Positions 1 to 21,200 of a DNA stretch of 64,000 bases are shown here, piece by piece. The notes beneath the pieces were generated by a model. The model was not told where the DNA came from, did no database searches, and saw only the letters and a list, made by a program, of their open reading frames with translations. Location: the NCBI GenBank assembly GCA_964057225.1, contig CAXKVF010000091.1, positions 1 to 64,000 on the forward strand, in the 5' to 3' direction. The position numbers and the translations under genes are program-made. The stretch comes from Auanema rhodensis. Its lineage: Eukaryota > Animalia > Nematoda. Numbering within the stretch: position 1 is the stretch's first letter; every line of letters starts with the position of its first letter.

Positions 1-3000
1 CGGTTTTCAAAATTAGATTCCCCATGTCCATATTAGTCTAAAAACAAATTTTTATTGATATTGGTTCATGGTAACCATGACTTTGAAATTTACGTGAACT
101 TTAATTTATGCTAATTAAATGTACACGTGATGTGCACTTGGTATGTAACTCGCTTCAAGTGAAAGATAAAGAGATGCGGTTTTCAAAATTAGATTCCCCA
201 TGTCCATATTAGTCTAAAAACAAATTTTTATTGATATTGGTGCATGGTAACCATGACTTTGAAATTTACGTGAACTTTAATTTATGCTAATTAAATGTAC
301 ACGTGATGTGCACTTGGTATGTAACTCGCTTCACGTGAAAGATAAAGAGATGCGGTTTTCAAAATTAGATTCCCCATGTCCATATTAGTCTAAAAACAAA
401 TTTTTATTGATATTGGTGCATGGTAACCATGACTTTGAAATTTACGTGAACTTTAATTTATGCTAATTAAATGTACACGTGATGTGCACTTGGTATGTAA
501 CTCGCTTCACGTGAAAGATAACGAGATGCGGTTTTCAAAATTAGATTCCCCATGTCCATATTAGTCTAAAAACAAATTTTTATTGATATTGGTGCATGGT
601 AACCATGACTTTGAAATTTACGTGAACTTTAATTTATGCTAATTAAATGTACACGTGATGGGCACTTGGTATGTAACTCGCTTCACGTGAAAGATAAAGA
701 GATGCGGTTTTCAAAATTAGATTCCCCATGTCCATATTAGTCTAAAAACAAATTTTTATTGATATTGGTTCATGGTAACCATGACTTTGAAATTTACGTG
801 AACTTTAATTTATGCTAATTAAATGTACACGTGATGTGCACTTGGTATGTAACTCGCTTCACGTGAAAGATAAAGAGATGCGGTTTTCAAAATTAGATTC
901 CCCATGTCCATATTAGTCTAAAAACAAATTTTTATTGATATTGGTTCATGGTAACCATGACTTTGAAATTTACGTGAACTTTAATTTATGCTAATTAAAT
1001 GTACACGTGATGTGCACTTGGTATGTAACTCGCTTCACGTGAAAGATAAGGAGATGCGGTTTTCAAAATTAGATTCCCCATGTCCATATTAGTCTAAAAA
1101 CAAATTTTTATTGATATTGGTGCATGGTAACCATGACTTTGAAATTTACGTGAACTTTAATTTATGCTAATTAAATGTACACGTGATGGGCACTTGGTAT
1201 GTAACTCGCTTCACGTGAAAGATAAAGAGATGCGGTTTTCAAAATTAGATTCCCCATGTCCATATTAGTCTAAAAACAAATTTTTATTGATATTGGTTCA
1301 TGGTAACCATGACTTTGAAATTTACGTGAACTTTAATTTATGCTAATTAAATGTACACGTGATGTGCACTTGGTATGTAACTCGCTTCACGTGAAAGATA
1401 AAGAGATGCGGTTTTCAAAATTAGATTCCCCATGTCCATATTAGTCTAAAAACAAATTTTTATTGATATTGGTTCATGGTAACCATGACTTTGAAATTTA
1501 CGTGAACTTTAATTTATGCTAATTAAATGTACACGTGATGTGCACTTGGTATGTAACTCGCTTCACGTGAAAGATAAAGAGATGCGGTTTTCAAAATTAG
1601 ATTCCCCATGTCCATATTAGTCTAAAAACAAATTTTTATTGATATTGGTGCATGGTAACCATGACTTTGAAATTTACGTGAACTTTAATTTATGCTAATT
1701 AAATGTACACGTGATGTGCACTTGGTATGTAACTCGCTTCACGTGAAAGATAAAGAGATGCGGTTTTCAAAATTAGATTCCCCATGTCCATATTAGTCTA
1801 AAAACAAATTTTTATTGATATTGGTGCATGGTAACCATGACTTTGAAATTTACGTGAACTTTAATTTATGCTAATTAAATGTACACGTGATGTGCACTTG
1901 GTATGTAACTCGCTTCACGTGAAAGATAACGAGATGCGGTTTTCAAAATTAGATTCCCCATGTCCATATTAGTCTAAAAACAAATTTTTATTGATATTGG
2001 TGCATGGTAACCATGACTTTGAAATTTACGTGAACTTTAATTTATGCTAATTAAATGTACACGTGATGGGCACTTGGTATGTAACTCGCTTCACGTGAAA
2101 GATAAAGAGATGCGGTTTTCAAAATTAGATTCCCCATGTCCATATTAGTCTAAAAACAAATTTTTATTGATATTGGTTCATGGTAACCATGACTTTGAAA
2201 TTTACGTGAACTTTAATTTATGCTAATTAAATGTACACGTGATGTGCACTTGGTATGTAACTCGCTTCACGTGAAAGATAAAGAGATGCGGTTTTCAAAA
2301 TTAGATTCCCCATGTCCATATTAGTCTAAAAACAAATTTTTATTGATATTGGTTCATGGTAACCATGACTTTGAAATTTACGTGAACTTTAATTTATGCT
2401 AATTAAATGTACACGTGATGTGCACTTGGTATGTAACTCGCTTCACGTGAAAGATAAAGAGATGCGGTTTTCAAAATTAGATTCCCTATGTCCATATTAG
2501 TCTAAAAACAAATTTTTATTGATATTGGTGCATGGTAACCATGACTTTGAAATTTACGTGAACTTTAATTTATGCTAATTAAATGTACACGTGATGTGCA
2601 CTTGGTATGTAACTCGCTTCACGTGAAAGATAAAGAGATGCGGTTTTCAAAATTAGATTCCCCATGTCCATATTAGTCTTAAAACAAATTTTTATTGATA
2701 TTGGTTCATGGTAACCATGACTTTGAAATTTACGTGAACTTTAATTTATGCTAATTAAATGTACACGTGATGTGCACTTGGTATGTAACTCGCTTCACGT
2801 GAAAGATAAAGAGATGCGGTTTTCAAAATTAGATTCCCCATGTCCATATTAGTCTAAAAACAAATTTTTATTGATATTGGTGCATGGTAACCATGACTTT
2901 GAAATTTACGTGAACTTTAATTTATGCTAATTAAATGTACACGTGATGTGCACTTGGTATGTAACTCGCTTCACGTGAAAGATAAAAAGATGCGGTTTTC

Positions 3001-6000
3001 AAAATTAGATTCCCCATGTCCATATTAGTCTAAAAACAAATTTTTATTGATATTGGTGCATGGTAACCATGACTTTGAAATTTACGTGAACTTTAATTTA
3101 TGCTAATTAAATGTACACGTGATGTGCACTTGGTATGTAACTCGCTTCACGTGAAAGATAAAGAGATGCGGTTTTCAAAATTAGATTCCCCATGTCCATA
3201 TTAGTCTAAAAACAAATTTTTATTGATATTGGTGCATGGTAACCATGACTTTGAAATTTACGTGAACTTTAATTTATGCTAATTAAATGTACACGTGATG
3301 TGCACTTGGTATGTAACTCGCTTCACGTGAAAGATAAAAAGATGCGGTTTTCAAAATTAGATTCCCCATGTCCATATTAGTCTAAAAACAAATTTTTATT
3401 GATATTGGTGCATGGTAACCATGACTTTGAAATTTACGTGAACTTTAATTTATGCTAATTAAATGTACACGTGATGTGCACTTGGTATGTAACTCGCTTC
3501 ACGTGAAAGATAAAGAGATGCGGTTTTCAAAATTAGATTCCCCATGTCCATATTAGTCGAAAAACAAATTTTTATTGATATTGGTGCATGGTAACCATGA
3601 CTTTGAAATTTACGTGAACTTTAATTTATGCTAATTAAATGTACACGTGATGTGCACTTGGTATGTAACTCGCTTCACGTGAAAGATGAAGAGATGCGGT
3701 TTTTAAAATTAGATTCCCCATGTCCATATTAGTCTAAAAACAAATTTTTATTGATATTGGTGCATGGTAACCATGACTTTGAAATTTACGTGAACTTTAA
3801 TTTATGCTAATTAAATGTACACGTGATGTGCACTTGGTATGTAACTCGCTTCACGTGAAAGATAAAGAGATGCGGTTTTCAAAATTAGATTCCCCATGTC
3901 CATATTAGTCTAAAAACAAATTTTTATTGATATTGGTTCATGGTAACCATGACTTTGAAATTTACGTGAACTTTAATTTATGCTAATTAAATGTACACGT
4001 GATGTGCACTTGGTATGTAACTCGCTTCACGTGAAAGATAAAGAGATGCGGTTTTCAAAATTAGATTCCCCATGTCCATATTAGTCTAAAAACAAATTTT
4101 TATTGATATTGGTGCATGGTAACCATGACTTTGAAATTTACGTGAACTTTAATTTATGCTAATTAAATGTACACGTGATGTGCACTTGGTATGTAACTCG
4201 CTTCACGTGAAAGATAAAGAGATGCGGTTTTCAAAATTAGATTCCCCATGTCCATATTAGTCTAAAAACAAATTTTTATTGATATTGGTGCATGGTAACC
4301 ATGACTTTGAAATTTACGTGAACTTTAATTTATGCTAATTAAATGTACACGTGATGTGCACTTGGTATGTAACTCGCTTCACGTGAAAGATAAAGAGATG
4401 CGGTTTCCAAAATTAGATTCCCCATGTCCATATTAGTCTAAAAACAAATTTTTATTGATATTGGTTCATGGTAACCATGACTTTGAAATTTACGTGAACT
4501 TTAATTTATGCTAATTAAATGTACACGTGATGTGCACTTGGTATGTAACTCGCTTCACGTGAAAGATAAAGAGATGCGGTTTTCAAAATTAGATTCCCCA
4601 TGTCCATATTAGTCTAAAAACAAATTTTTATTGATATTGGTGCATGGTAACCATGACTTTGAAATTTACGTGAACTTTAATTTATGCTAATTAAATGTAC
4701 ACGTGATGTGCACTTGGTATGTAACTCGCTTCACGTGAAAGATAAAGAGATGCGGTTTTCAAAATTAGATTCCCCATGTCCATATTAGTCTAAAAACAAA
4801 TTTTTATTGATATTGGTTCATGGTAACCATGACTTTGAAATTTACGTGAACTTTAATTTATGCTAATTAAATGTACACGTGATGTGCACTTGGTATGTAA
4901 CTCGCTTCACGTGAAAGATAAAGAAATGCGGTTTTCAAAATTAGATTCCCCATGTCCATATTAGTCTAAAAACAAATTTTTATTGATATTGGTGCATGGT
5001 AACCATGACTTTGAAATTTACGTGAACTTTAATTTATGCTAATTAAATGTACACGTGATGTGCACTTGGTATGTAACTCGCTTCACGTGAAAGATAAAGA
5101 GATGCGGTTTTCAAAATTAGATTCCCCATGTCCATATTAGTCTAAAAACAAATTTTTATTGATATTGGTGCATGGTAACCATGACTTTGAAATTTACGTG
5201 AACTTTAATTTATGCTAATTAAATGTACACGTGATGTGCACTTGGTATGTAACTCGCTTCACGTGAAAGATAAAGAGATGCGGTTTTCAAAATTAGATTC
5301 CCCATGTCCATATTAGTCTAAAAACAAATTTTTATTGATATTGGTTCATGGTAACCATGACTTTGAAATTTACGTGAACTTTAATTTATGCTAATTAAAT
5401 GTACACGTGATGTGCACTTGGTATGTAACTCGCTTCACGTGAAAGATAAAGAGATGCGGTTTTCAAAATTAGATTCCCTATGTCCATATTAGTCTAAAAA
5501 CAAATTTTTATTGATATTGGTGCATGGTAACCATGACTTTGAAATTTACGTGAACTTTAATTTATGCTAATTAAATGTACACGTGATGTGCACTTGGTAT
5601 GTAACTCGCTTCACGTGAAAGATAAAGAGATGCGGTTTTCAAAATTAGATTCCCCATGTCCATATTAGTCTAAAAACAAATTTTTATTGATATTGGTTCA
5701 TGGTAACCATGACTTTGAAATTTACGTGAACTTTAATTTATGCTAATTAAATGTACACGTGATGTGCACTTGGTATGTAACTCGCTTCACGTGAAAGATA
5801 AAAAGATGCGGTTTTCAAAATTAGATTCCCCATGTCCATATTAGTCTAAAAACAAATTTTTATTGATATTGGTGCATGGTAACCATGACTTTGAAATTTA
5901 CGTGAACTTTAATTTATGCAAATTAAATGTACACGTGATGTGCACTTGGTATGTAACTCGCTTCACGTGAAAGATAAAGAGATGCGGTTTTCAAAATTAG

Positions 6001-7872
6001 ATTCCCCATGTCCATATTAGTCGAAAAACAAATTTTTATTGATATTGGTGCATGGTAACCATGACTTTGAAATTTACGTGAACTTTAATTTATGCTAATT
6101 AAATGTACACGTGATGTGCACTTGGTATGTAACTCGCTTCACGTGAAAGATGAAGAGATGCGGTTTTTAAAATTAGATTCCCCATGTCCATATTAGTCTA
6201 AAAACAAATTTTTATTGATATTGGTGCATGGTAACCATGACTTTGAAATTTACGTGAACTTTAATTTATGTTAATTAAATGTACACGTGATGTGCACTTG
6301 GTATGTAACTCGCTTCACGTGAAAGATAAAGAGATGCGGTTTTCAAAATTAGATTCCCCATGTCCATATTAGTCTAAAAACAAATTTTTATTGATATTGG
6401 TTCATGGTAACCATGACTTTGAAATTTACGTGAACTTTAATTTATGCTAATTAAATGTACACGTGATGTGCACTTGGTATGTAACTCGCTTCACGTGAAA
6501 GATAAAGAGATGCGGTTTTCAAAATTAGATTCCCCATGTCCATATTAGTCTAAAAACAAATTTTTATTGATATTGGTGCATGGTAACCATGACTTTGAAA
6601 TTTACGTGAACTTTAATTTATGCTAATTAAATGTACACGTGATGTGCACTTGGTATGTAACTCGCTTCACGTGAAAGATAAAGAGATGCGGTTTTCAAAA
6701 TTAGATTCCCCATGTCCATATTAGTCTAAAAACAAATTTTTATTGATATTGGTGCATGGTAACCATGACTTTGAAATTTACGTGAACTTTAATTTATGCT
6801 AATTAAATGTACACGTGATGTGCACTTGGTATGTAACTCGCTTCACGTGAAAGATAAAGAGATGCGGTTTCCAAAATTAGATTCCCCATGTCCATATTAG
6901 TCTAAAAACAAATTTTTATTGATATTGGTTCATGGTAACCATGACTTTGAAATTTACGTGAACTTTAATTTATGCTAATTAAATGTACACGTGATGTGCA
7001 CTTGGTATGTAACTCGCTTCACGTGAAAGATAAAGAGATGCGGTTTTCAAAATTAGATTCCCCATGTCCATATTAGTCTAAAAACAAATTTTTATTGATA
7101 TTGGTGCATGGTAACCATGACTTTGAAATTTACGTGAACTTTAATTTATGCTAATTAAATGTACACGTGATGTGCACTTGGTATGTAACTCGCTTCACGT
7201 GAAAGATAAAGAGATGCGGTTTTCAAAATTAGATTCCCCATGTCCATATTAGTCTAAAAACAAATTTTTATTGATATTGGTTCATGGTAACCATGACTTT
7301 GAAATTTACGTGAACTTTAATTTATGCTAATTAAATGTACACGTGATGTGCACTTGGTATGTAACTCGCTTCACGTGAAAGATAAAGAAATGCGGTTTTC
7401 AAAATTAGATTCCCCATGTCCATATTAGTCTAAAAACAAATTTTTATTGATATTGGTGCATGGTAACCATGACTTTGAAATTTACGTGAACTTTAATTTA
7501 TGCTAATTAAATGTACACGTGATGTGCACTTGGTATGTAACTCGCTTCACGTGAAAGATAAAGAGATGCGGTTTTCAAAATTAGATTCCCCATGTCCATA
7601 TTAGTCTAAAAACAAATTTTTATTGATATTGGTGCATGGTAACCATGAATTTGAAATTTACGTGAACTTTAATTTATGCTAATTAAATGTACACGTGATG
7701 TGCACTTGGTATGTAACTCGTTTCACGTGAAAGATAAAGAGATGCGGTTTTCAAAATTAGATTCCCCATGTCCATATTAGTCGAAAAACAAATTTTTATT
7801 GATATTGGTGCATGGTAACCATGACTTTGAAATTTACGTGAACTTTAATTTATGCTAATTAAATGTACACGT
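1..7872. repeat. 176-bp tandem satellite array, left arm (~44.7 monomers; continues beyond window start)
   Basis: The unit CGGTTTTCAAAATTAG...GATAAAGAGATG restarts at 1, 177, ... 2641 and 5281 (multiples of 176). Copies differ by only 0-3 substitutions. Consensus has 57/176 G+C (~32%). Confidence 0.99.
7854..7872 (+). repeat. Target-site duplication, left copy (GCTAATTAAATGTACACGT, 19 bp)
   Basis: Satellite runs to ...GTACACGT at 7872 and then diverges. The same 19-mer reopens the satellite at 12246. The last 1-2 nt may be microhomology with the element 3' end. Confidence 0.93.
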
Positions 7873-8363
7873 TTAATGTTTATTGTTGTTCAATATCACA
7901 GGTTAAGACAGTAGCTGTTAAGTCATGGAGTGAAAAAATCAAGAACCATTCAATAAGAACATAAAAAAGGACTTTTAATATTGTAAGTTCGATAAGAGCT
8001 CGCTTATCTATGATCAATAGTGAACAGTCTGCCAAATAAAATTCTTGCTGTATGCTTGGGGTTTGTTCAGCACAATGGCTGACCTCACTAATGTGGTTGT
8101 TAGGTACGGTGGTACTCGTGATGTGAGGCAAGCCCGTTCTAGCAATTTGGAGGTAACTAGCGTCCGATCCGTATGACTAATGTCTATAGGAATAGTGACG
8201 AAGTAACAATTATTGAGAAGGGACAAAGAAAAATAGATGGTAGACTGTTGCCATGTGGTCATAGAGAAGTGTGAAAAAATACGAACTACAAATAAAAAGG
8301 AGCCTGATAAAAGAAAAAAAAATAGTTTTTAGAGAGGTGAGAACATTAATTACAATGGATGGT
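7873..8363 (-). other. LINE 3' UTR (~490 nt) with a predicted structured core (~7987-8249) and U-rich segments
   Basis: Lies between the ORF2 stop (8364) and the left TSD. Many nested complementary segments were found by eye. Confidence 0.8.
7879..7884 (-). terminator. AATAAA polyadenylation-like signal at the element 3' terminus
   Basis: Minus strand ends ...GAACAACAATAAACATTAA, then target. No poly(A) tract follows, so this may instead be part of a terminal short repeat. Confidence 0.45.
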
Positions 8364-11300
8364 TTACAAATCAATTGGAGCAGAGAGCAGGTGTTTTTTA
8401 AAATTATGAACATTAGTAAGGTTGATAAGGTTTTCAGGTAGATCGTTCCATGTTTTGATGCTTCTGTACTCAATACCATTTCTTGTCGCCTTTTTCCGAA
8501 GCTCGGGATAGTCGATATTCCATTGGTGTCTGCGAAGAGAGTGGGTGAAATGTTTAATTTGAAAAATTCTTAAAATACTGTCCGTTGATACGTCTTTAAT
8601 TTGAGAGAAATAGAAACCTAGATCAGTTACCTGTCTCCTGGTTGATAGTTCTTGAGCATTCAAAAAAGTGAGCTGACTTTCGTAGTCGGAAAAAATTCCT
8701 GCTCTTGAGAAGACTGCTCGCAAGAATTTTTTTTGAACCATCTCAATACGAGATATTTTTTTAGATACTTGGGGAGACCATATCACGGATGCATATTCAA
8801 GGATTGGTCGAACGTAGCTGCAAAAAAGGTTGAACATAAATGAAGGTGATCTAGAGTAGAAGCAACGTAGAAGGATGCGACATTTGAGAGCTGCGGCGCA
8901 AGAGATGGCGTTTATGTGACAATCAAATGTTAGATTGTTATCAGTTAAGACTCCAAGGTCTTTATAATGAGGTACAAAGTCTAAAGGAAACTCACCAAAG
9001 GTAAATGGCTCGGTGGGGTTGAGGGTTGAGCTATTATTGCACACAATCATAATTTTGGATTTGGTGGTGTTGACCATCATTCCATTATTTTTGCACCAGG
9101 CGTTGATTGTGTTTAAGGCAATCTGTAGACTTACCGGATTAGTACTGTATAGTTTGAGATCATCGGCAAAAAGTGTAGGATGAACGTCTTCAGGGAGAGA
9201 AGACGTAATGTCATTAATGTAGAAAAGGAATAGAAGAGGACCGAGAACAGTGCCTTGTGGGACACCACAAGATAAGTTTACAGAAGTAGAAAGAGAACCA
9301 TTGACAAGAACTGAGTAAGATCTGCCAGTGATGAAGTTTTTGAGAAAAGTTTGAAGAGAACCGCAGATACCAATGGTTTTAAATTTGTGGAAAAGAACCG
9401 AGTGATCAATTAGATCAAAAGCTTTAGAGAAGTCTATAAAAGCAGTATAGACTGGAATGTTTTTATCTAAACATGATCTCCAGGCAATATGATTGTTAAT
9501 GATTGCTGATATGGTATTACGTTTAGGAAGAAAAGCGTGCTGGTGAGCAGATATAGATCCAGTAGAAATGCCAAAGTGGAGGAGCGGGGGTGAAATGAGT
9601 CGCTCAAAAACTTTGGAAAGACTTGGTGTTAATGATATAGGGCGATAGTTTGAAGGATTAGAGCGATTTCCAGATTTGAAAACAGGACGGATCCAAGCTT
9701 TCTTCCAGTCCGGAGGGCATGAAGAAGAAACGAGTAAATTGTGAAAAATGAAGGCAAGTGGGTAGCAAAGAGTAGAGGCGCACTGATTAAGAAAATAGTA
9801 GGGAATGCCATCAGAAGAAGTAGAAACTCTGAGAGGAAGATGAGAAAGAACTTTATAGACTTTTTCGGGAGAAATGTCTATAAAATCAATGATAGAAGAA
9901 GGGCGAGAGGAGCTGTTGATTAAATCCGATGAAATACTTGGTTTGACAGAAAAAGAGCTTGCAAAAATGGAAGCTTTTTCTGTGTCTGTCGAGTATATTT
10001 CTTCACCAAGTCTAATCGTGGGGATATCTGAAGAGCAACCACCGAGACGAGTTCTACAGAAGCGATAAAAAAGTTTGGGGTTATTGGTTGAAGCAATGTG
10101 TTCTTCTTCCAAAATAGACTTTTGTTTAATAAGTCTATCTAGTTTTATAGTTAGTTTTTTGCGGAGAAGCTCGTCACGGTGGCAAATAGATGAACTGAGC
10201 CTTTTGATGTAACAGTAGAGATCCGCAATATTGCGGTCAACTTTTTTTCTACGCCTAGGTTGTTTGTGAGGAACGAATACAGAGATTATGGATTGTAGGA
10301 TGTTGATGAATTTGGAGTAAGAGTCAAGAGGGGAAAGACCAGATAATACCAAAGAAAAGTCGATGCTGACAAGATGGCGATTGATGGCATTGAAGTCGGC
10401 TCGATAGAAATTGAGTTGAGAAAAGTTGGAAAGTGAGGAGGTATTGAAGAGTGTATTGGAAGAGAAAGGAAGGGTATCCAGAGGGGATACAGGGGTGTTG
10501 ATGATGATGGAGAATGTAACCGAGAAGTGATCGGAGTTACCCAATGGAGGGGAGCGTGATATATTAGATATGATTGAAGGATTGTTTGTGATAAGGTAGT
10601 CTAAAATGTTGTTACCACGTGTAGGAAAATTGACAAGTTGATCAGAGTGACTACTTTGGAGAAATTGAATAATTGATTTACTAGAAGGAGATGAGAGTGA
10701 GGACTGAAGAAGATCCCAATTGATATTAGGAAAGTTCAGGTCACCCGTAATAAAGAAAGAGCGGTTAGAAATATGACCATTGAGATCAGAAAGATAAGAA
10801 CAAAAATCAGAGTGAGAAGCAGTAGGGGAACGATAACAAACGGAGAAAACCGAGTTGTTAGAGGTTAGAAGGATGGTAACATATTGAACCGATGAAGAGA
10901 GGGGTGAGGAGGAGAGTAAAATTGAGTTAATTTGTTTTTTTAAGAACAAAAGAGTACCACCGCCGCGTGAAGAATGCTTGTCTGCTCTGAATATGTTGTA
11001 ATGATCATTTAGAGGAAGATGATCAGAAGAAAAATCAGAAAACAGCCAAGATTCCGATATGGCGATGATATCAGGGGATGAGATAGAATGAATGATTGTG
11101 AGGAAATGAAGTTTATTGAGAATAGAACGTGCATTGTAACAGTGGACTGATAGTTTAACAGGGACATGAGAAGAAAGCAAGCATGGTGAAGAAGCGGTTT
11201 TAACGAAAGGACATGTTGTTACAGGACCGAGATAAAGATGTTGTATCGGATCCGCTTCTTGATCTAGTAGGAAGTTCGGCAGTAGGCTTAACAGAGCGTG

Positions 11301-11447
11301 GTGGATTCTTTCTTCTTCTTGGGCTAATAGAGGATTTTTTCTCCAGAGAAAGAATTTTTGACCTGCCAGTTGAGCGACTATTCCTACTAGATTTAGAAGG
11401 GGGGCTAGATATAACACCAGTATCAATATTGGACGGACATTGGACAT
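8364..11447 (-). CDS. LINE ORF2: apurinic-like endonuclease + reverse transcriptase (open frame 1027 aa; functional part probably begins ~11204 via +1 frameshift)
   Basis: APE motifs YNARS, ISESWL, YRSP, GDLN, LDY and SDH (~11160-10520). RT motifs NYRPISL, QHAF, FIDFSKAFD, GVPQGTVLGP, FADD (9170-9159) and KDLG. No internal stops or frameshifts. Confidence 0.96.
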   Translation of the reverse strand: MSNVRPILILVLYLAPLLNLVGIVAQLAGQKFFLWRKNPLLAQEEERIHHALLSLLPNFLLDQEADPIQHLYLGPVTTCPFVKTASSPCLLSSHVPVKLSVHCYNARSILNKLHFLTIIHSISSPDIIAISESWLFSDFSSDHLPLNDHYNIFRADKHSSRGGGTLLFLKKQINSILLSSSPLSSSVQYVTILLTSNNSVFSVCYRSPTASHSDFCSYLSDLNGHISNRSFFITGDLNFPNINWDLLQSSLSSPSSKSIIQFLQSSHSDQLVNFPTRGNNILDYLITNNPSIISNISRSPPLGNSDHFSVTFSIIINTPVSPLDTLPFSSNTLFNTSSLSNFSQLNFYRADFNAINRHLVSIDFSLVLSGLSPLDSYSKFINILQSIISVFVPHKQPRRRKKVDRNIADLYCYIKRLSSSICHRDELLRKKLTIKLDRLIKQKSILEEEHIASTNNPKLFYRFCRTRLGGCSSDIPTIRLGEEIYSTDTEKASIFASSFSVKPSISSDLINSSSRPSSIIDFIDISPEKVYKVLSHLPLRVSTSSDGIPYYFLNQCASTLCYPLAFIFHNLLVSSSCPPDWKKAWIRPVFKSGNRSNPSNYRPISLTPSLSKVFERLISPPLLHFGISTGSISAHQHAFLPKRNTISAIINNHIAWRSCLDKNIPVYTAFIDFSKAFDLIDHSVLFHKFKTIGICGSLQTFLKNFITGRSYSVLVNGSLSTSVNLSCGVPQGTVLGPLLFLFYINDITSSLPEDVHPTLFADDLKLYSTNPVSLQIALNTINAWCKNNGMMVNTTKSKIMIVCNNSSTLNPTEPFTFGEFPLDFVPHYKDLGVLTDNNLTFDCHINAISCAAALKCRILLRCFYSRSPSFMFNLFCSYVRPILEYASVIWSPQVSKKISRIEMVQKKFLRAVFSRAGIFSDYESQLTFLNAQELSTRRQVTDLGFYFSQIKDVSTDSILRIFQIKHFTHSLRRHQWNIDYPELRKKATRNGIEYRSIKTWNDLPENLINLTNVHNFKKHLLSAPIDL
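11200..11211 (-). promoter_or_regulatory. Putative +1 programmed ribosomal frameshift site UCC_UUU_CGU followed by the ORF1 stop UAA
   Basis: Minus strand reads ATG TCC TTT CGT TAA in the ORF1 frame and CCT TTC GTT AAA in the ORF2 frame. ORF2 is +1 relative to ORF1 (12240-11447=793, mod 3=1). The 9-mer is identical to the influenza A PA-X shift motif. Confidence 0.7.
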
Positions 11448-12240
11448 TTGAATTGGACTTAGAAACAGTAGAAGTATTTAGAGAAACTTGTGGAGTAGAA
11501 GTGGTTGAACGGGCAGTTGGTTTACGTGGAATCTTTATAAGTTTGAGATCGCGTACAATGAAAAGTGAGTCACTATTATCCAAATTTTTCGCTTTTGCTT
11601 CTTCGCGCAGTTTTTTTTCAAGATCTACCTCGAAGGGAAGATAATCGCGACGAATAAACGTTTTAGACAAGCTTTCAAAACATATGGCTTTGTTTGTCCT
11701 AATGGTTTCAATGATTTTGTCACGTAAATCAACTGTTGAACATGAAATAATGAGAGGGCCTGGAGAATTAGATTTGAGAGTTGAGCGAGTAATGGTTATT
11801 TGGTTGCTGTTAATCAAAGAAATCAAGGTGTCATCATTAGACTTTCCAGCTATAAGTTTGAGAAGGGCGGTAGGGTCCGAGGGAAACTCAGATGAATCGT
11901 GAGGAACCCTAAACCAAACCGCTCTTTTCAAGCGATAAGAATACCTTGATTCCTCAGATCGAACTTTTTGAACATGACACATAATACTGGTAGAAGTGGT
12001 TTGAGAAGGAGAAGAGGCATTGAAAGTTGGAACATTTAGGAGTTGTTGCTCTAAAGTATCGATACGTGATTTGAGGTTTGTTTCGATAGTTTTGATACGA
12101 GCTTCATTAGCTGCTACATTGATTTTAATACTGTTGAGTTCGTTTTTGATGTCAGATGAAAGTTGAGAGAAAGATTCTCGGAAAGATTTGGAAAGAGACT
12201 CAAGAGCATCAGTAAAGAAATCTTTTGTAACAGCTGTCAT
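11200..12240 (-). CDS. LINE ORF1 protein (346 aa): N-terminal coiled coil, central putative nucleic-acid-binding domain, basic Ser/Thr/Arg-rich tail
   Basis: First ORF of the element. It has a heptad-like LESLSKSF...IDTLEQQLL segment, an FIRRDY...LEKKLREEAK...FIVRDL block resembling ORF1 C-terminal domains of invertebrate CR1-like elements, and a low-complexity basic tail (PRRRKNPPR). Whether ATG 12240 is the native start is uncertain. Confidence 0.85.
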   Translation of the reverse strand: MTAVTKDFFTDALESLSKSFRESFSQLSSDIKNELNSIKINVAANEARIKTIETNLKSRIDTLEQQLLNVPTFNASSPSQTTSTSIMCHVQKVRSEESRYSYRLKRAVWFRVPHDSSEFPSDPTALLKLIAGKSNDDTLISLINSNQITITRSTLKSNSPGPLIISCSTVDLRDKIIETIRTNKAICFESLSKTFIRRDYLPFEVDLEKKLREEAKAKNLDNSDSLFIVRDLKLIKIPRKPTARSTTSTPQVSLNTSTVSKSNSNVQCPSNIDTGVISSPPSKSSRNSRSTGRSKILSLEKKSSISPRRRKNPPRSVKPTAELPTRSRSGSDTTSLSRSCNNMSFR

Positions 12241-12245
12241 ATTGA

Positions 12246-12264
12246 GCTAATTAAATGTACACGT
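12246..12264 (+). repeat. Target-site duplication, right copy (GCTAATTAAATGTACACGT, 19 bp)
   Basis: Identical to 7854-7872. Base 12245 (A) differs from the satellite consensus (T) and marks the element boundary. Confidence 0.93.
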
Positions 12265-15200
12265 GATGTGCACTTGGTATGTAACTCGCTTCACGTGAAA
12301 GATGAAGAGATGCGGTTTTTAAAATTAGATTCCCCATGTCCATATTAGTCTAAAAACAAATTTTTATTGATATTGGTGCATGGTAACCATGACTTTGAAA
12401 TTTACGTGAACTTTAATTTATGCAAATTAAATGTACACGTGATGTGCACTTGGTATGTAACTCGCTTCACGTGAAAGATAAAGAGATGCGGTTTTCAAAA
12501 TTAGATTCCCCATGTCCATATTAGTCGAAAAACAAATTTTTATTGATATTGGTGCATGGTAACCATGACTTTGAAATTTACGTGAACTTTAATTTATGCT
12601 AATTAAATGTACACGTGATGTGCACTTGGTATGTAACTCGCTTCACGTGAAAGATGAAGAGATGCGGTTTTTAAAATTAGATTCCCCATGTCCATATTAG
12701 TCTAAAAACAAATTTTTATTGATATTGGTGCATGGTAACCATGACTTTGAAATTTACGTGAACTTTAATTTATGCTAATTAAATGTACACGTGATGTGCA
12801 CTTGGTATGTAACTCGCTTCACGTGAAAGATAAAGAGATGCGGTTTTCAAAATTAGATTCCCCATGTCCATATTAGTCTAAAAACAAATTTTTATTGATA
12901 TTGGTGCATGGTAACCATGACTTTGAAATTTACGTGAACTTTAATTTATGCTAATTAAATGTACACGTGATGTGCACTTGGTATGTAACTCGCTTCACGT
13001 GAAAGATAAAGAGATGCGGTTTTCAAAATTAGATTCCCCATGTCCATATTAGTCTAAAAACAAATTTTTATTGATATTGGTTCATGGTAACCATGACTTT
13101 GAAATTTACGTGAACTTTAATTTATGCTAATTAAATGTACACGTGATGTGCACTTGGTATGTAACTCGCTTCACGTGAAAGATAAAGAAATGCGGTTTTC
13201 AAAATTAGATTCCCCATGTCCATATTAGTCTAAAAACAAATTTTTATTGATATTGGTGCATGGTAACCATGACTTTGAAATTTACGTGAACTTTAATTTA
13301 TGCTAATTAAATGTACACGTGATGTGCACTTGGTATGTAACTCGCTTCACGTGAAAGATAAAGAGATGCGGTTTTCAAAATTAGATTCCCCATGTCCATA
13401 TTAGTCTAAAAACAAATTTTTATTGATATTGGTGCATGGTAACCATGAATTTGAAATTTACGTGAACTTTAATTTATGCTAATTAAATGTACACGTGATG
13501 TGCACTTGGTATGTAACTCGCTTCACGTGAAAGATAAAGAGATGCGGTTTTCAAAATTAGATTCCCCATGTCCATATTAGTCGAAAAACAAATTTTTATT
13601 GATATTGGTGCATGGTAACCATGACTTTGAAATTTACGTGAACTTTAATTTATGCTAATTAAATGTACACGTGATGTGCACTTGGTATGTAACTCGCTTC
13701 ACGTGAAAGATGAAGAGATGCGGTTTTTAAAATTAGATTCCCCATGTCCATATTAGTCTAAAAACAAATTTTTATTGATATTGGTGCATGGTAACCATGA
13801 CTTTGAAATTTACGTGAACTTTAATTTATGCTAATTAAATGTACACGTGATGTGCACTTGGTATGTAACTCGCTTCACGTGAAAGATAAAGAGATGCGGT
13901 TTTCAAAATTAGATTCCCCATGTCCATATTAGTCTAAAAACAAATTTTTATTGATATTGGTTCATGGTAACCATGACTTTGAAATTTACGTGAACTTTAA
14001 TTTATGCTAATTAAATGTACACGTGATGTGCACTTGGTATGTAACTCGCTTCACGTGAAAGATAAAGAGATGCGGTTTTCAAAATTAGATTCCCCATGTC
14101 CATATTAGTCTAAAAACAAATTTTTATTGATATTGGTGCATGGTAACCATGACTTTGAAATTTACGTGAACTTTAATTTATGCTAATTAAATAAACACGT
14201 GATGTGCACTTGGTATGTAACTCGCTTCACGTGAAAGATGAAGAGATGCGGTTTTCAAAATTAGATTCCCCATGTCCATATTAGTCTAAAAACAAATTTT
14301 TATTGATATTGGTTCATGGTAACCATGACTTTGAAATTTACGTGAACTTTAATTTATGCTAATTAAATGTACACGTGATGTGCACTTGGTATGTAACTCG
14401 CTTCACGTGAAAGATAAAGAGATGCGGTTTTCAAAATTAGATTCCCCATGTCCATATTAGTCTAAAAACAAATTTTTATTGATATTGGTGCATGGTAACC
14501 ATGACTTTGAAATTTACGTGAACTTTAATTTATGCTAATTAAATGTACACGTGATGTGCACTTGGTATGTAACTCGCTTCACGTGAAAGATAAGGAGATG
14601 CGGTTTTCAAAATTAGATTCCCCATGTCCATATTAGTCTAAAAACAAATTTTTATTGATATTGGTGCATGGTAACCATGACTTTGAAATTTACGTGAACT
14701 TTAATTTATGCTAATTAAATGTACACGTGATGGGCACTTGGTATGTAACTCGCTTCACGTGAAAGATAAAGAGATGCGGTTTTCAAAATTAGATTCCCCA
14801 TGTCCATATTAGTCTAAAAACAAATTTTTATTGATATTGGTTCATGGTAACCATGACTTTGAAATTTACGTGAACTTTAATTTATGCTAATTAAATGTAC
14901 ACGTGATGGGCACTTGGTATGTAACTCGCTTCACGTGAAAGATAAAGAGATGCGGTTTTCAAAATTAGATTCCCCATGTCCATATTAGTCTAAAAACAAA
15001 TTTTTATTGATATTGGTTCATGGTAACCATGACTTTGAAATTTACGTGAACTTTAATTTATGCTAATTAAATGTACACGTGATGTGCACTTGGTATGTAA
15101 CTCGCTTCACGTGAAAGATAAAGAGATGCGGTTTTCAAAATTAGATTCCCCATGTCCATATTAGTCTAAAAACAAATTTTTATTGATATTGGTTCATGGT

Positions 15201-18200
15201 AACCATGACTTTGAAATTTACGTGAACTTTAATTTATGCTAATTAAATGTACACGTGATGTGCACTTGGTATGTAACTCGCTTCACGTGAAAGATAAAGA
15301 GATGCGGTTTTCAAAATTAGATTCCCCATGTCCATATTAGTCTAAAAACAAATTTTTATTGATATTGGTGCATGGTAACCATGACTTTGAAATTTACGTG
15401 AACTTTAATTTATGCTAATTAAATGTACACGTGATGTGCACTTGGTATGTAACTCGCTTCACGTGAAAGATAAGGAGATGCGGTTTTCAAAATTAGATTC
15501 CCCATGTCCATATTAGTCTAAAAACAAATTTTTATTGATATTGGTGCATGGTAACCATGACTTTGAAATTTACGTGAACTTTAATTTATGCTAATTAAAT
15601 GTACACGTGATGGGCACTTGGTATGTAACTCGCTTCACGTGAAAGATAAAGAGATGCGGTTTTCAAAATTAGATTCCCCATGTTCATATTAGTCTAAAAA
15701 CAAATTTTTATTGATATTGGTTCATGGTAACCATGACTTTGAAATTTACGTGAACTTTAATTTATGCTAATTAAATGTACACGTGATGTGCACTTGGTAT
15801 GTAACTCGCTTCACGTGAAAGATAAAGAGATGCGGTTTTCAAAATTAGATTCCCCATGTCCATATTAGTCTAAAAACAAATTTTTATTGATATTGGTTCA
15901 TGGTAACCATGACTTTGAAATTTACGTGAACTTTAATTTATGCTAATTAAATGTACACGTGATGTGCACTTGGTATGTAACTCGCTTCACGTGAAAGATA
16001 AAGAGATGCGGTTTTCAAAATTAGATTCCCCATGTCCATATTAGTCTAAAAACAAATTTTTATTGATATTGGTGCATGGTAACCATGACTTTGAAATTTA
16101 CGTGAACTTTAATTTATGCTAATTAAATGTACACGTGATGTGCACTTGGTATGTAACTCGCTTCACGTGAAAGATAAAGAGATGCGGTTTTCAAAATTAG
16201 ATTCCCCATGTCCATATTAGTCTAAAAACAAATTTTTATTGATATTGGTGCATGGTAACCATGACTTTGAAATTTACGTGAACTTTAATTTATGCTAATT
16301 AAATGTACACGTGATGTGCACTTGGTATGTAACTCGCTTCACGTGAAAGATAAGGAGATGCGGTTTTCAAAATTAGATTCCCCATGTCCATATTAGTCTA
16401 AAAACAAATTTTTATTGATATTGGTGCATGGTAACCATGACTTTGAAATTTACGTGAACTTTAATTTATGCTAATTAAATGTACACGTGATGGGCACTTG
16501 GTATGTAACTCGCTTCACGTGAAAGATAAAGAGATGCGGTTTTCAAAATTAGATTCCCCATGTTCATATTAGTCTAAAAACAAATTTTTATTGATATTGG
16601 TTCATGGTAACCATGACTTTGAAATTTACGTGAACTTTAATTTATGCTAATTAAATGTACACGTGATGTGCACTTGGTATGTAACTCGCTTCACGTGAAA
16701 GATAAAGAGATGCGGTTTTCAAAATTAGATTCCCCATGTCCATATTAGTCTAAAAACAAATTTTTATTGATATTGGTTCATGGTAACCATGACTTTGAAA
16801 TTTACGTGAACTTTAATTTATGCTAATTAAATGTACACGTGATGTGCACTTGGTATGTAACTCGCTTCACGTGAAAGATAAAGAGATGCGGTTTTCAAAA
16901 TTAGATTCCCCATGTCCATATTAGTCTAAAAACAAATTTTTATTGATATTGGTGCATGGTAACCATGACTTTGAAATTTACGTGAACTTTAATTTATGCT
17001 AATTAAATGTACACGTGATGTGCACTTGGTATGTAACTCGCTTCACGTGAAAGATAAAGAGATGCGGTTTTCAAAATTAGATTCCCCATGTCCATATTAG
17101 TCTAAAAACAAATTTTTATTGATATTGGTGCATGGTAACCATGACTTTGAAATTTACGTGAACTTTAATTTATGCTAATTAAATGTACACGTGATGTGCA
17201 CTTGGTATGTAACTCGCTTCACGTGAAAGATAACGAGATGCGGTTTTCAAAATTAGATTCCCCATGTCCATATTAGTCTAAAAACAAATTTTTATTGATA
17301 TTGGTGCATGGTAACCATGACTTTGAAATTTACGTGAACTTTAATTTATGCTAATTAAATGTACACGTGATGGGCACTTGGTATGTAACTCGCTTCACGT
17401 GAAAGATAAAGAGATGCGGTTTTCAAAATTAGATTCCCCATGTCCATATTAGTCTAAAAACAAATTTTTATTGATATTGGTTCATGGTAACCATGACTTT
17501 GAAATTTACGTGAACTTTAATTTATGCTAATTAAATGTACACGTGATGTGCACTTGGTATGTAACTCGCTTCACGTGAAAGATAAAGAGATGCGGTTTTC
17601 AAAATTAGATTCCCCATGTCCATATTAGTCTAAAAACAAATTTTTATTGATATTGGTTCATGGTAACCATGACTTTGAAATTTACGTGAACTTTAATTTA
17701 TGCTAATTAAATGTACACGTGATGTGCACTTGGTATGTAACTCGCTTCACGTGAAAGATAAGGAGATGCGGTTTTCAAAATTAGATTCCCCATGTCCATA
17801 TTAGTCTAAAAACAAATTTTTATTGATATTGGTGCATGGTAACCATGACTTTGAAATTTACGTGAACTTTAATTTATGCTAATTAAATGTACACGTGATG
17901 GGCACTTGGTATGTAACTCGCTTCACGTGAAAGATAAAGAGATGCGGTTTTCAAAATTAGATTCCCCATGTCCATATTAGTCTAAAAACAAATTTTTATT
18001 GATATTGGTTCATGGTAACCATGACTTTGAAATTTACGTGAACTTTAATTTATGCTAATTAAATGTACACGTGATGTGCACTTGGTATGTAACTCGCTTC
18101 ACGTGAAAGATAAAGAGATGCGGTTTTCAAAATTAGATTCCCCATGTCCATATTAGTCTAAAAACAAATTTTTATTGATATTGGTTCATGGTAACCATGA

Positions 18201-21200
18201 CTTTGAAATTTACGTGAACTTTAATTTATGCTAATTAAATGTACACGTGATGTGCACTTGGTATGTAACTCGCTTCACGTGAAAGATAAAGAGATGCGGT
18301 TTTCAAAATTAGATTCCCCATGTCCATATTAGTCTAAAAACAAATTTTTATTGATATTGGTGCATGGTAACCATGACTTTGAAATTTACGTGAACTTTAA
18401 TTTATGCTAATTAAATGTACACGTGATGTGCACTTGGTATGTAACTCGCTTCACGTGAAAGATAAAGAGATGCGGTTTTCAAAATTAGATTCCCCATGTC
18501 CATATTAGTCTAAAAACAAATTTTTATTGATATTGGTGCATGGTAACCATGACTTTGAAATTTACGTGAACTTTAATTTATGCTAATTAAATGTACACGT
18601 GATGTGCACTTGGTATGTAACTCGCTTCACGTGAAAGATAACGAGATGCGGTTTTCAAAATTAGATTCCCCATGTCCATATTAGTCTAAAAACAAATTTT
18701 TATTGATATTGGTGCATGGTAACCATGACTTTGAAATTTACGTGAACTTTAATTTATGCTAATTAAATGTACACGTGATGGGCACTTGGTATGTAACTCG
18801 CTTCACGTGAAAGATAAAGAGATGCGGTTTTCAAAATTAGATTCCCCATGTCCATATTAGTCTAAAAACAAATTTTTATTGATATTGGTTCATGGTAACC
18901 ATGACTTTGAAATTTACGTGAACTTTAATTTATGCTAATTAAATGTACACGTGATGTGCACTTGGTATGTAACTCGCTTCACGTGAAAGATAAAGAGATG
19001 CGGTTTTCAAAATTAGATTCCCCATGTCCATATTAGTCTAAAAACAAATTTTTATTGATATTGGTTCATGGTAACCATGACTTTGAAATTTACGTGAACT
19101 TTAATTTATGCTAATTAAATGTACACGTGATGTGCACTTGGTATGTAACTCGCTTCACGTGAAAGATAAAGAGATGCGGTTTTCAAAATTAGATTCCCTA
19201 TGTCCATATTAGTCTAAAAACAAATTTTTATTGATATTGGTGCATGGTAACCATGACTTTGAAATTTACGTGAACTTTAATTTATGCTAATTAAATGTAC
19301 ACGTGATGTGCACTTGGTATGTAACTCGCTTCACGTGAAAGATAAAAAGATGCGGTTTTCAAAATTAGATTCCCCATGTCCATATTAGTCTAAAAACAAA
19401 TTTTTATTGATATTGGTTCATGGTAACCATGACTTTGAAATTTACGTGAACTTTAATTTATGCTAATTAAATGTACACGTGATGTGCACTTGGTATGTAA
19501 CTCGCTTCACGTGAAAGATAAAGAGATGCGGTTTTCAAAATTAGATTCCCCATGTCCATATTAGTCTAAAAACAAATTTTTATTGATATTGGTGCATGGT
19601 AACCATGACTTTGAAATTTACGTGAACTTTAATTTATGCTAATTAAATGTACACGTGATGTGCACTTGGTATGTAACTCGCTTCACGTGAAAGATAAAAA
19701 GATGCGGTTTTCAAAATTAGATTCCCCATGTCCATATTAGTCTAAAAACAAATTTTTATTGATATTGGTGCATGGTAACCATGACTTTGAAATTTACGTG
19801 AACTTTAATTTATGCTAATTAAATGTACACGTGATGTGCACTTGGTATGTAACTCGCTTCACGTGAAAGATAAAGAGATGCGGTTTTCAAAATTAGATTC
19901 CCCATGTCCATATTAGTCGAAAAACAAATTTTTATTGATATTGGTGCATGGTAACCATGACTTTGAAATTTACGTGAACTTTAATTTATGCTAATTAAAT
20001 GTACACGTGATGTGCACTTGGTATGTAACTCGCTTCACGTGAAAGATGAAGAGATGCGGTTTTTAAAATTAGATTCCCCATGTCCATATTAGTCTAAAAA
20101 CAAATTTTTATTGATATTGGTGCATGGTAACCATGACTTTGAAATTTACGTGAACTTTAATTTATGCTAATTAAATGTACACGTGATGTGCACTTGGTAT
20201 GTAACTCGCTTCACGTGAAAGATAAAGAGATGCGGTTTTCAAAATTAGATTCCCCATGTCCATATTAGTCTAAAAACAAATTTTTATTGATATTGGTTCA
20301 TGGTAACCATGACTTTGAAATTTACGTGAACTTTAATTTATGCTAATTAAATGTACACGTGATGTGCACTTGGTATGTAACTCGCTTCACGTGAAAGATA
20401 AAGAGATGCGGTTTTCAAAATTAGATTCCCCATGTCCATATTAGTCTAAAAACAAATTTTTATTGATATTGGTGCATGGTAACCATGACTTTGAAATTTA
20501 CGTGAACTTTAATTTATGCTAATTAAATGTACACGTGATGTGCACTTGGTATGTAACTCGCTTCACGTGAAAGATAAAGAGATGCGGTTTTCAAAATTAG
20601 ATTCCCCATGTCCATATTAGTCTAAAAACAAATTTTTATTGATATTGGTGCATGGTAACCATGACTTTGAAATTTACGTGAACTTTAATTTATGCTAATT
20701 AAATGTACACGTGATGTGCACTTGGTATGTAACTCGCTTCACGTGAAAGATAAAGAGATGCGGTTTTCAAAATTAGATTCCCCATGTCCATATTAGTCTA
20801 AAAACAAATTTTTATTGATATTGGTTCATGGTAACCATGACTTTGAAATTTACGTGAACTTTAATTTATGCTAATTAAATGTACACGTGATGTGCACTTG
20901 GTATGTAACTCGCTTCACGTGAAAGATAAAGAGATGCGGTTTTCAAAATTAGATTCCCCATGTCCATATTAGTCTAAAAACAAACTTTTATTGATATTGG
21001 TGCATGGTAACCATGACTTTGAAATTTACGTGAACTTTAATTTATGCTAATTAAATGTACACGTGATGTGCACTTGGTATGTAACTCGCTTCACGTGAAA
21101 GATAAAGAGATGCGGTTTTCAAAATTAGATTCCCCATGTCCATATTAGTCTAAAAACAAATTTTTATTGATATTGGTTCATGGTAACCATGACTTTGAAA

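What the first reader, a model, noticed from the sequence alone, without database searches (positions are those of the whole stretch)
11200..11211. LINE appears to express ORF2 through an influenza PA-X-type +1 frameshift (UCC_UUU_CGU_UAA)
Seen in sequence: the last three sense codons of ORF1 are UCC UUU CGU, followed by UAA. ORF2 is in the +1 frame, where UUU_C becomes UUC, so tRNA-Phe can re-pair perfectly. The APE domain starts about 15 codons later (VKTASSPCLLSSHVPVKLSVHCYNARS). After Met1 at 11447 the next in-frame Met is residue 790 (9080), beyond the RT FADD motif, so there is no AUG for re-initiation after the ORF1 stop. The 81 residues before the site are Leu/Ile/Val-rich and look like an off-frame reading of ORF1's Ser/Thr/Pro tail. 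Established knowledge: UCC_UUU_CGU is the +1 shift site of influenza A PA-X, UUU_CGN is the proposed site in amalgaviruses, and the well-studied LINEs (human L1, SART1) make ORF2 by termination/re-initiation or coupling. Inference: this element makes a low-abundance gag-pol-like fusion ...NNMSF/VKTASS... of 345+946=1291 aa. I do not know of this motif being described in a non-LTR retrotransposon, but I cannot check the literature.
Basis: partly seen in the sequence, partly recalled or inferred. Interest (0 to 1): 0.9.

Follow-up and report, generated by a model that had tools for sequence, protein, structure and literature searches.

The report
Flu-type frameshift in a nematode LINE
An intact jumping gene (a LINE) of a roundworm ends its first gene on the exact nine-letter sequence at which influenza ribosomes slip one base forward, and it likely makes its copying enzyme by that slip, a signal so far described in viruses and a few host genes rather than in LINEs.

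Summary
Observation confirmed. A CR1-type nematode LINE (12245-7873, minus strand, 19-bp target-site duplication) sits in a 176-bp satellite. ORF1 (L1-ORF1p-like fold) ends UCC_UUU_CGU_UAA. ORF2 lies in the +1 frame; its only AUG before the RT's FADD motif is 240 nt upstream, behind 12 other AUGs. The endonuclease fold starts about 12 codons after the site. Contigs of two studies list no indel in either ORF, and variants are mostly synonymous, so ORF2 is likely in use. New evidence: the three closest ORF1 relatives (27-34% identity, NCBI proteins of Auanema sp. JU1783) also end S/T-F-R(-K)-stop, at the end of a disordered tail (0 of 20,000 shuffles). The 81-residue 'leader' looks like an off-frame shadow. 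Missing: DNA of those relatives, so the codons and the frame there are untested, and there is no expression data. Best reading: PA-X-type +1 frameshift giving a low-level ORF1-ORF2 fusion (about 0.75). Main rival: AUG-independent reinitiation. Earlier scan notes reported -1 slips in other LINEs; no note returned described this motif. My searches of the open-access library found no paper on the motif in a LINE.

The parts
7873..12245 (-). CR1-type LINE insertion, about 4.37 kb, the only long non-satellite stretch in the window
12246..12264 (-). 5' copy of the 19-bp target-site duplication (satellite sequence)
7854..7872 (-). 3' copy of the 19-bp target-site duplication
11200..12240 (-). ORF1, 346 aa: coiled coil (2-68), RRM- and CTD-like core (107-238), disordered tail (243-346) ending S-F-R-stop
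   Evidence: human L1 ORF1p trimer 2yko, E 1.8e-4; nematode relatives
11200..11211 (-). UCC_UUU_CGU_UAA: inferred +1 shift site (P-site tRNA-Phe UUU to UUC) and ORF1 stop
   Evidence: sequence; function inferred
8364..11204 (-). ORF2 from the first +1 codon after the shift, 946 aa: APE endonuclease and reverse transcriptase
11205..11447 (-). 81-codon open stretch from ATG 11447 in the ORF2 frame; likely an off-frame shadow of the ORF1 tail, not a translated leader
7873..8363 (-). 3' UTR, about 490 nt, with a T-rich stretch after the stop
1..64000 (.). 176-bp satellite array (about 363 copies called across the window) that hosts the insertion

Best explanation
This nematode CR1-type LINE ends ORF1 on UCC_UUU_CGU_UAA with an AUG-less ORF2 continuing in the +1 frame, and a small share of ribosomes likely slip one base forward there to make an ORF1-ORF2 fusion that supplies the endonuclease and reverse transcriptase. 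Shown: the sequence, the frames, the absence of a usable AUG, the domain boundaries, intact ORFs with mostly synonymous variation, and F-R at the C-terminus of three distant ORF1 relatives. Inferred from influenza PA-X and PLEKHM2: with UUU in the P site and CGU in the A site, tRNA-Phe re-pairs to UUC, at roughly 1% and without an RNA structure. Most ribosomes would read CGU and stop, giving abundant ORF1p. The fusion (...NNMSF/VKTASS..., 1291 aa) would be predicted to carry ORF1p's coiled coil, joined through about 100 disordered residues to the enzyme; whether it is cleaved is unknown. It is also inferred that the relatives' F-R is encoded UUU_CGN.
For: Exact match to a cassette validated in mammalian systems without cis-stimulators, in the last three sense codons and in the frame needed (chance about 1e-4 within the last 10 codons). 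The L1 endonuclease aligns from residue 3 to model residue 94, so the site at residues 81/82 lies about 10 codons before where L1 ORF2p begins (Z 22.7, rmsd 3.0, 211 aligned). ORF2 seems used: 15 of 21 classified ORF2 variants and 11 of 16 ORF1 variants are synonymous, against about 23-24% expected. No indel is listed in the ORFs; one contig at full local depth covers 10516-11234 without gaps. The three best full-length ORF1 hits end SFRK*, SFR* and TFRK*. FR in the last 3 residues of all four proteins: 0 of 20,000 shuffles, 0 of 94 offsets. They form one clade with about 4 changes per site of summed branch length, and the tail is predicted disordered (pLDDT under 50 for 243-346). Even if S-F-R were fixed for protein reasons, these codons plus the +1 frame have a chance of about 0.016. 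AUG-less ORF2 entry is common in CR1-group elements: 9 of 20 scorable background loci lack an in-frame Met, several with readthrough- or -1-type signals 45-90 nt before the same endonuclease motif; the window's site is at 73 nt.
Against: No DNA of the three relatives was obtained (searches returned none). Their F-R(-K)-stop could be encoded otherwise; R* and K* also fit an overlapping A-UGA start-stop. The four FR-ending proteins are one clade, so this is one origin, not four. The 20 other nematode-type ORF1 hits fetched do not end in FR (several are partial or spliced gene models). The tail has some protein-level conservation (9 of 104 columns invariant), so a terminal peptide motif is possible. 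CGU is common in this element, so a hungry-codon pause is not expected. The cassette has not been tested in nematode ribosomes in any paper I saw. The classified variants are the 37 in-ORF rows among the 40 best-supported of 292, and mix subfamilies. The junction of the roughly 90%-identical second subfamily was not displayed.
Confidence: 0.75

Rival explanations
1. Termination-reinitiation without an AUG: ribosomes stop at UAA and a few restart on a near-cognate codon in the ORF2 frame, such as UUG at 11180 (20 nt after the stop). This gives a separate ORF2p, as for L1. The conserved F-R would be a protein motif or part of a reinitiation signal.
For: UUG 11180 would start ORF2 almost exactly where L1 ORF2p starts. 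A passage in PMC1965478 says mammalian L1 tolerates replacing its ORF2 AUG with other sense codons (the passage is cut off). Reinitiation is reported for SART1. A free ORF2p matches the best-studied LINEs.
Against: It does not explain why the codons are UCC UUU CGU and the frame is +1 (joint chance about 0.016 given S-F-R). UUG 11180 has a pyrimidine-rich context and an out-of-frame AUG 4 nt before it. No stable structure was found downstream of the stop (z 0.46), whereas SART1 needs one.
Confidence: 0.13
2. ORF2 starts at ATG 11447 on a separate or processed mRNA (internal promoter, or trans-splicing as nematodes do for operons) and carries an 81-residue hydrophobic leader.
For: The frame is open from ATG 11447 into the endonuclease. 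A weak acceptor-like TTTCTAAG ends 11 nt before the ATG. Trans-splicing is standard in nematodes (own knowledge).
Against: Synonymous resampling of the ORF1 tail keeps the +1 frame open for 90 or more codons in 26% of trials. It also yields an in-frame Met in 16% and the same Leu/Ile/Val share (0.37 +/- 0.05 against 0.36 observed). The variant at 11332, carried at full depth in both deep runs, is silent in ORF1 and Pro>Leu in the leader. Twelve AUGs lie upstream. The leader is modelled as low-confidence helices outside the fold. An AAG acceptor is a poor one (own knowledge).
Confidence: 0.06
3. The family normally has ORF1 and ORF2 in one frame, or an AUG at the junction, and this copy or assembly carries an indel or mutation that happens to spell the motif.
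For: Only the best-supported variants were displayed, and copy number is unknown. A chance TCCTTTCG lies just after an ORF1 stop in 1 of 80 background loci (L062).
Against: No indel is listed in either ORF in four runs of two studies, and a gap-free contig at full local depth covers the junction. Relatives' ORF1s stop at the same F-R position.
Confidence: 0.03
4. Cis-splicing joins ORF1 to ORF2 in frame and removes the junction.
For: Gene models of Pristionchus relatives join ORF1 and the endonuclease, though these are automatic predictions.
Against: A simple scan found no GTRAG donor in 12240-11100 and no T-rich acceptor in the ORF2 phase in 11800-11100. Spliced RNA would be retrotransposed without the intron (general knowledge).
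Confidence: 0.03

Closest known systems
Influenza A virus PA-X +1 frameshift (UCC_UUU_CGU; PMC3498833, passages read)
   Same: Identical nine letters, the same +1 geometry with P-site UUU to UUC, and no downstream structure.
   Different: In PA-X the site is inside a long ORF and gives a truncated accessory protein. Here it is the last three codons of ORF1 and would give access to the essential enzyme. CGU is rare in the hosts of influenza but common in this element.
Amalgavirus and ZbV-Z ORF1+2 fusion at UUU_CGN (PMC5052127, passages read)
   Same: Closest in logic: a coiled-coil ORF1, a polymerase ORF2 in the +1 frame, and the motif in the overlap.
   Different: dsRNA viruses with an RdRp; overlaps of 287-968 nt; the motif there is also a proposal from conservation.
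Human PLEKHM2 (UCC_UUU_CGG, about 1.3%, peptide-confirmed; PMC11451614, passages read) and predicted ASXL1
   Same: The same motif class works in a nuclear-encoded animal mRNA without a required structure.
   Different: Host genes that gain an alternative C-terminus; vertebrates; not mobile elements.
Ty1/Ty3 gag-pol +1 frameshifts; Dictyostelium TRE5-A/TRE3-A -1 frameshift; Drosophila R1A/R1B overlaps (PMC5911963, PMC2718515, passages read)
   Same: A retrotransposon reaching its enzyme ORF by a frame change. R1A ORFs overlap by 7 bp in the -2 (=+1) frame.
   Different: Ty1/Ty3 are LTR elements with other motifs. TRE is -1. The R1 passage names no shift motif.
Nematode CR1/T1-clade LINEs (C. 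elegans LINE2A/C/E, listed in PMC11662393)
   Same: ORF1 + APE-RT ORF2; all named ORF1 hits but one are nematode proteins (P0057 is filed under a fungus); APE and RT Pfam domains.
   Different: The window's element and three Auanema ORF1s form a separate, well-supported clade ending in F-R. I could not compare it directly with the C. elegans families.
Human L1 and Bombyx SART1 (termination-reinitiation)
   Same: Bicistronic LINE, L1-like ORF1p fold and endonuclease fold.
   Different: Those have an AUG at or after the ORF1 stop and make a free ORF2p (for SART1, for L1). Here there is no such AUG.

Membership tests
PA-X-type +1 frameshift site | (Y)CC_UUU_CGN in the zero frame | tested here: met
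   UCC_UUU_CGU at 11211-11203 in the ORF1 frame
PA-X-type +1 frameshift site | Functional ORF continuing in the +1 frame from UUU_C | tested here: met
   946 open codons with APE and RT; mostly synonymous variation
PA-X-type +1 frameshift site | Motif conserved at nucleotide level beyond protein need in relatives | tested here: inconclusive
   S/T-F-R is kept in 3 of 3 close ORF1 relatives at protein level; no DNA for them
PA-X-type +1 frameshift site | No required downstream RNA structure | tested here: met
   The 100 nt after the stop fold no better than shuffles (z 0.46); no long-range pairing with the 3' UTR
PA-X-type +1 frameshift site | Slowly decoded A-site CGN codon | tested here: inconclusive
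   CGU is common in the element; host tRNA levels unknown; PMC5052127 suggests CGN acts for reasons other than rarity
PA-X-type +1 frameshift site | Transframe product shown by reporter or mass spectrometry | not testable with these tools
   needs bench work
APE-type non-LTR retrotransposon (LINE) | ORF2 with APE endonuclease and RT; ORF1 with coiled coil and RRM; target-site duplication; no LTR | tested here: met
CR1 clade | RT groups with reference CR1 elements in a tree | not tested
   No named CR1 reference was available. The assignment rests on recalled motif likeness and on nematode ORF1 hits; best ORF2 hits are unnamed, at 25-30% identity
Stop-start coupled LINEs (SART1 type) | AUG overlapping or just after the ORF1 stop, in the ORF2 frame | tested here: not met
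   No ORF2-frame AUG between 11447 and 9080
-1 frameshift LINEs (TRE type; earlier scan notes) | X_XXY_YYZ heptamer with ORF2 in the -1 frame | tested here: not met
   ORF2 is +1; no such heptamer within 150 nt before the endonuclease motif

The most novel reading that the evidence does not exclude
A clade of nematode LINEs has kept the influenza PA-X frameshift cassette at the very end of ORF1 over about four substitutions per site and makes its reverse transcriptase only as a retrovirus-like ORF1-ORF2 fusion. Together with the readthrough and -1 signals seen at the same position in other CR1-group elements, this would mean that fusion by recoding, not reinitiation, is a usual way for CR1-group LINEs to make ORF2p, with the type of signal swapped between lineages.
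Probability: 0.55. Interest if true: 0.78.

Novelty: new variant of a known kind. Interest (0 to 1): 0.63.

Why it matters
How LINEs translate ORF2 is known from only a few elements, where ORF2p is a free protein made by reinitiation. A fusion would tether the enzyme to the ORF1p trimer through the coiled coil (inferred), set the ORF1p:ORF2p ratio at about 100:1 by a nine-letter signal, and give a simple route to cis-preference. It would extend the PA-X cassette from RNA viruses and vertebrate genes to a retrotransposon and to nematodes, where it can be tested with a standard reporter. It also gives annotators a rule: an ORF1 ending S-F-R marks the true start of ORF2, and the upstream AUG leader is probably spurious.

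Tried and rejected
No whole genome is held. No RNA holder was listed. DNA of close relatives was not found: viral contigs, metagenome contigs (52, 64) and genome contigs with the ORF1 alignment (53) gave nothing. Exact look-ups of 10 window-derived proteins found none, and ORF1 itself is not in the collection (41). The word-indexed search found no ORF1 relative (10) and no longer fused form among proteins of 1657-4730 aa (37); that length range excludes a 1291-aa fusion, so it is uninformative. The ESM Atlas gave only unnamed clusters under 0.9 (72). A closer read-level view of the junction was not obtained, so the junction of the second subfamily stays unseen. Long-range pairing of the junction with the 3' UTR, suggested by earlier scan notes: 30-mers after the stop pair at -13 to -15 kcal/mol against an element mean of -13.6 +/- 3.5, so rejected (77). 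A 9-bp inverted repeat flanks the site (11260-11252 with 11197-11189), but the region folds no better than shuffles (z -0.56); not used. P0042 (5679-aa repeat protein) was dropped from the 24 ORF1 hits as a coiled-coil match. Kojima 2005 is not held. The A. melissensis genome paper has no readable supplements (66); a repeat library there could bear on the claim. Literature searches with no paper describing this motif in a LINE: (open-access library only; subscription papers and Repbase reports not covered; most hits judged from listings). Earlier-finding look-ups were empty.

Full report
The window is a 176-bp satellite array with one long insertion on the minus strand, 12245-7873, flanked by a 19-bp target-site duplication. 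The insertion holds ORF1 (12240-11200, 346 aa) and a frame open from 11477 to 8364 with APE endonuclease and RT domains. The ORF1 model (4-sequence alignment, mean pLDDT 65) has a coiled coil, an RRM/CTD-like core and a disordered tail from residue 243; its best fold match is human L1 ORF1p (E 1.8e-4). The named ORF1 relatives are nematode proteins, apart from one filed under a fungus. This is a nematode LINE; the CR1 label rests on recalled motif likeness and was not tested with a tree of named references.

ORF1 ends TCC TTT CGT TAA and ORF2 is in the +1 frame. The only ORF2-frame AUG before the RT's FADD motif is 11447, which has 12 AUGs upstream of it; the next is 9080. The eight-letter core is expected 0.73 times in 64 kb, so position is what counts. 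From the element's own codon use, the exact nine letters have a chance of about 1e-4 in the last 10 codons and 8e-4 in the 92-codon overlap; UUU_CGN alone has 0.10 in the overlap. These figures are not corrected for the many LINEs and motifs that a scan looks at.

ORF2 needs an entry route. Contigs of four runs from two studies were laid on 8200-12400 (two runs deep, two sparse; one may be the source sample). All seven listed indels lie outside the ORFs. One contig at the full local depth covers 10516-11234 with one silent change and no gap, which argues against an assembly error or a copy-specific indel; it extends only 23 bases upstream of the motif. The tool showed 40 of 292 differences. 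I classified the 37 that lie in the ORFs and dropped one in the 3' UTR and two in the satellite: 11 of 16 in ORF1 and 15 of 21 in ORF2 are synonymous, against 23-24% expected. These rows are the best supported and mix subfamilies, so the p-values are only indicative. A second subfamily about 90% identical is present, but its junction was not displayed.

The upstream AUG looks accidental. Resampling synonymous codons of the ORF1 tail leaves the +1 frame open for 90 or more codons in 26% of trials. It also gives an in-frame Met in 16% and reproduces the Leu/Ile/Val content (0.37 +/- 0.05 against 0.36). The single listed variant in the overlap is silent in ORF1 and changes the leader; one site is weak evidence. 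In a model of leader plus endonuclease, the fold starts at residue 94-95. It aligns with L1 endonuclease from L1 residue 3 (Z 22.7, rmsd 3.0, 211 aligned). The shift site (residues 81/82) thus lies about 10 codons before the position of L1's Met1.

Conservation is the main new evidence. A search of 1.84 billion representatives gave 24 hits; I dropped one long repeat protein and read 23. The three best full-length hits (27-34% identity; Auanema sp. JU1783) end ...GLTSFRK*...CQNSFR* and ...HSTFRK*. FR is shared within the last three residues of all four proteins; no shared dipeptide arose there in 20,000 shuffles of the tails or at 94 other offsets. The residue before F is S, S, S, T, each of which has an NCC codon. 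The four form one clade (100/99) whose core domain spans about four changes per site: a single origin, but long retention in a disordered tail. The other 20 hits do not end in FR; several are partial or spliced models. A protein-level reason cannot be excluded, since 9 of 104 tail columns are invariant. The relatives' R* and K* ends would also fit an A-UGA overlap. Yet even granting S-F-R, the window's codons plus the +1 frame have a chance of about 0.016. I could not get the relatives' DNA, so this is the gap in the argument.

Background. A search of prokaryotic genome contigs returned 80 CR1-group loci, evidently eukaryotic contaminants of bins. In 20 of 80 my pattern found the endonuclease start with 150 nt or more upstream. 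Nine of these 20 (six families by eye) have no in-frame Met. Among them are same-frame stops 66-72 nt upstream (L001 UGA_CAA_UUG; L035), -1 frames with U_UUU_UUA (L030, L033) or A_AAA_AAC (L074), and one +1 frame without an evident motif (L075). None of the 20 has UUUCG within 150 nt. The window's site sits 73 nt before the same motif. Against my reading, L062 has a chance TCCTTTCG just after its ORF1 stop in a geometry that cannot work. So AUG-less entry is common in this group and the PA-X motif is not general.

Mechanism. By analogy with PA-X (about 1.3%, P-site slip on UUU_C, UCC stimulating; PMC3498833 passages; PMC5009743 passages) and PLEKHM2 (about 1.3%, peptide-confirmed, no required structure; PMC11451614 passages), a few ribosomes would slip at UUU_C and make a 1291-aa fusion. 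There is no downstream structure and no pairing with the 3' UTR, which fits this class. CGU is common in the element, so a hungry-codon pause is doubtful; PMC5052127 notes that CGN may act for other reasons (passages). The main rival is AUG-independent reinitiation, for example at UUG 11180; L1 is said to tolerate a non-AUG start (PMC1965478 passage), and SART1 reinitiates with a downstream structure (PMC10275272 passages).

Prior art. Frame changes into LINE ORF2 are in print: -1 for TRE5-A/TRE3-A (PMC5911963 passages), HeT-A gag, and R1A/R1B overlaps in -2 and -1 frames (PMC2718515 passages). Earlier AI notes of this scan propose -1 slips in CR1 and other LINEs. The vertebrate CR1 survey section that I read does not discuss ORF2 translation (PMC13343379 section 15). 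Searches showed no paper on UCC_UUU_CGN in a LINE; they cover only the open-access library, and most hits were judged from listings. PMC11662393 and the A. rhodense preprint were read as passages for context only.

Verdict: a real feature, probably a programmed +1 frameshift (0.75). It is a known signal in a class of element where I found no report of it: a new variant of a known kind, interest 0.63.

Noticed in passing
window 12245-12240; table 8 (X2 record 24, X8 record 32): The window's copy begins only 5 nt before the ORF1 ATG.
   Followed up: no
window 8200-11714: A second subfamily about 88-90% identical (for example 28 differences over 10709-10998, 32 over 11391-11714, no gaps) at about a quarter to a third of the depth.
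   Followed up: partly
L001:1700-1712; L069 and L070 (123 nt before the endonuclease motif); L071; L035: CR1-group elements with ORF1 and ORF2 in one frame separated by a single stop; L001 (UGA CAA UUG) and L069/L070 (UGA CAA) resemble readthrough contexts (motif recalled). L001 and L035 have no Met before the endonuclease.
   Followed up: partly
L030 and L033 near 4955-4962; L074 near 1068-1075; L026, L039, L044: AUG-less ORF2 in the -1 frame with slippery heptamers (U_UUU_UUA, A_AAA_AAC; C_UUU_UUA in a decayed family), in line with earlier scan notes on -1 slips in CR1.
   Followed up: partly
L075:1100-1294: ORF2 in the +1 frame with no Met before the endonuclease and no recognised shift motif; ORF1 ends CAG UAA UAG and is weakly similar to the nematode ORF1 profile (E 1e-5).
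   Followed up: no
P0047 cluster, P0048, P0049, P0051, P0058, P0062-P0064: Many other nematode ORF1s end in Ala or Leu before the stop, which would fit an A-UGA stop-start overlap; DNA not seen.
   Followed up: no
L001-L080: At least 132 stretches of eukaryotic LINE sequence lie in contigs of prokaryotic genome bins, i.e. host contamination in species-representative genomes.
   Followed up: no
window 11260-11252 and 11197-11189: A perfect 9-bp inverted repeat flanks the shift site; the region's folding is not better than shuffles.
   Followed up: yes
window 1-64000: The 176-bp satellite is 93% homogeneous and has summed contig depth in the millions in two runs.
   Followed up: no
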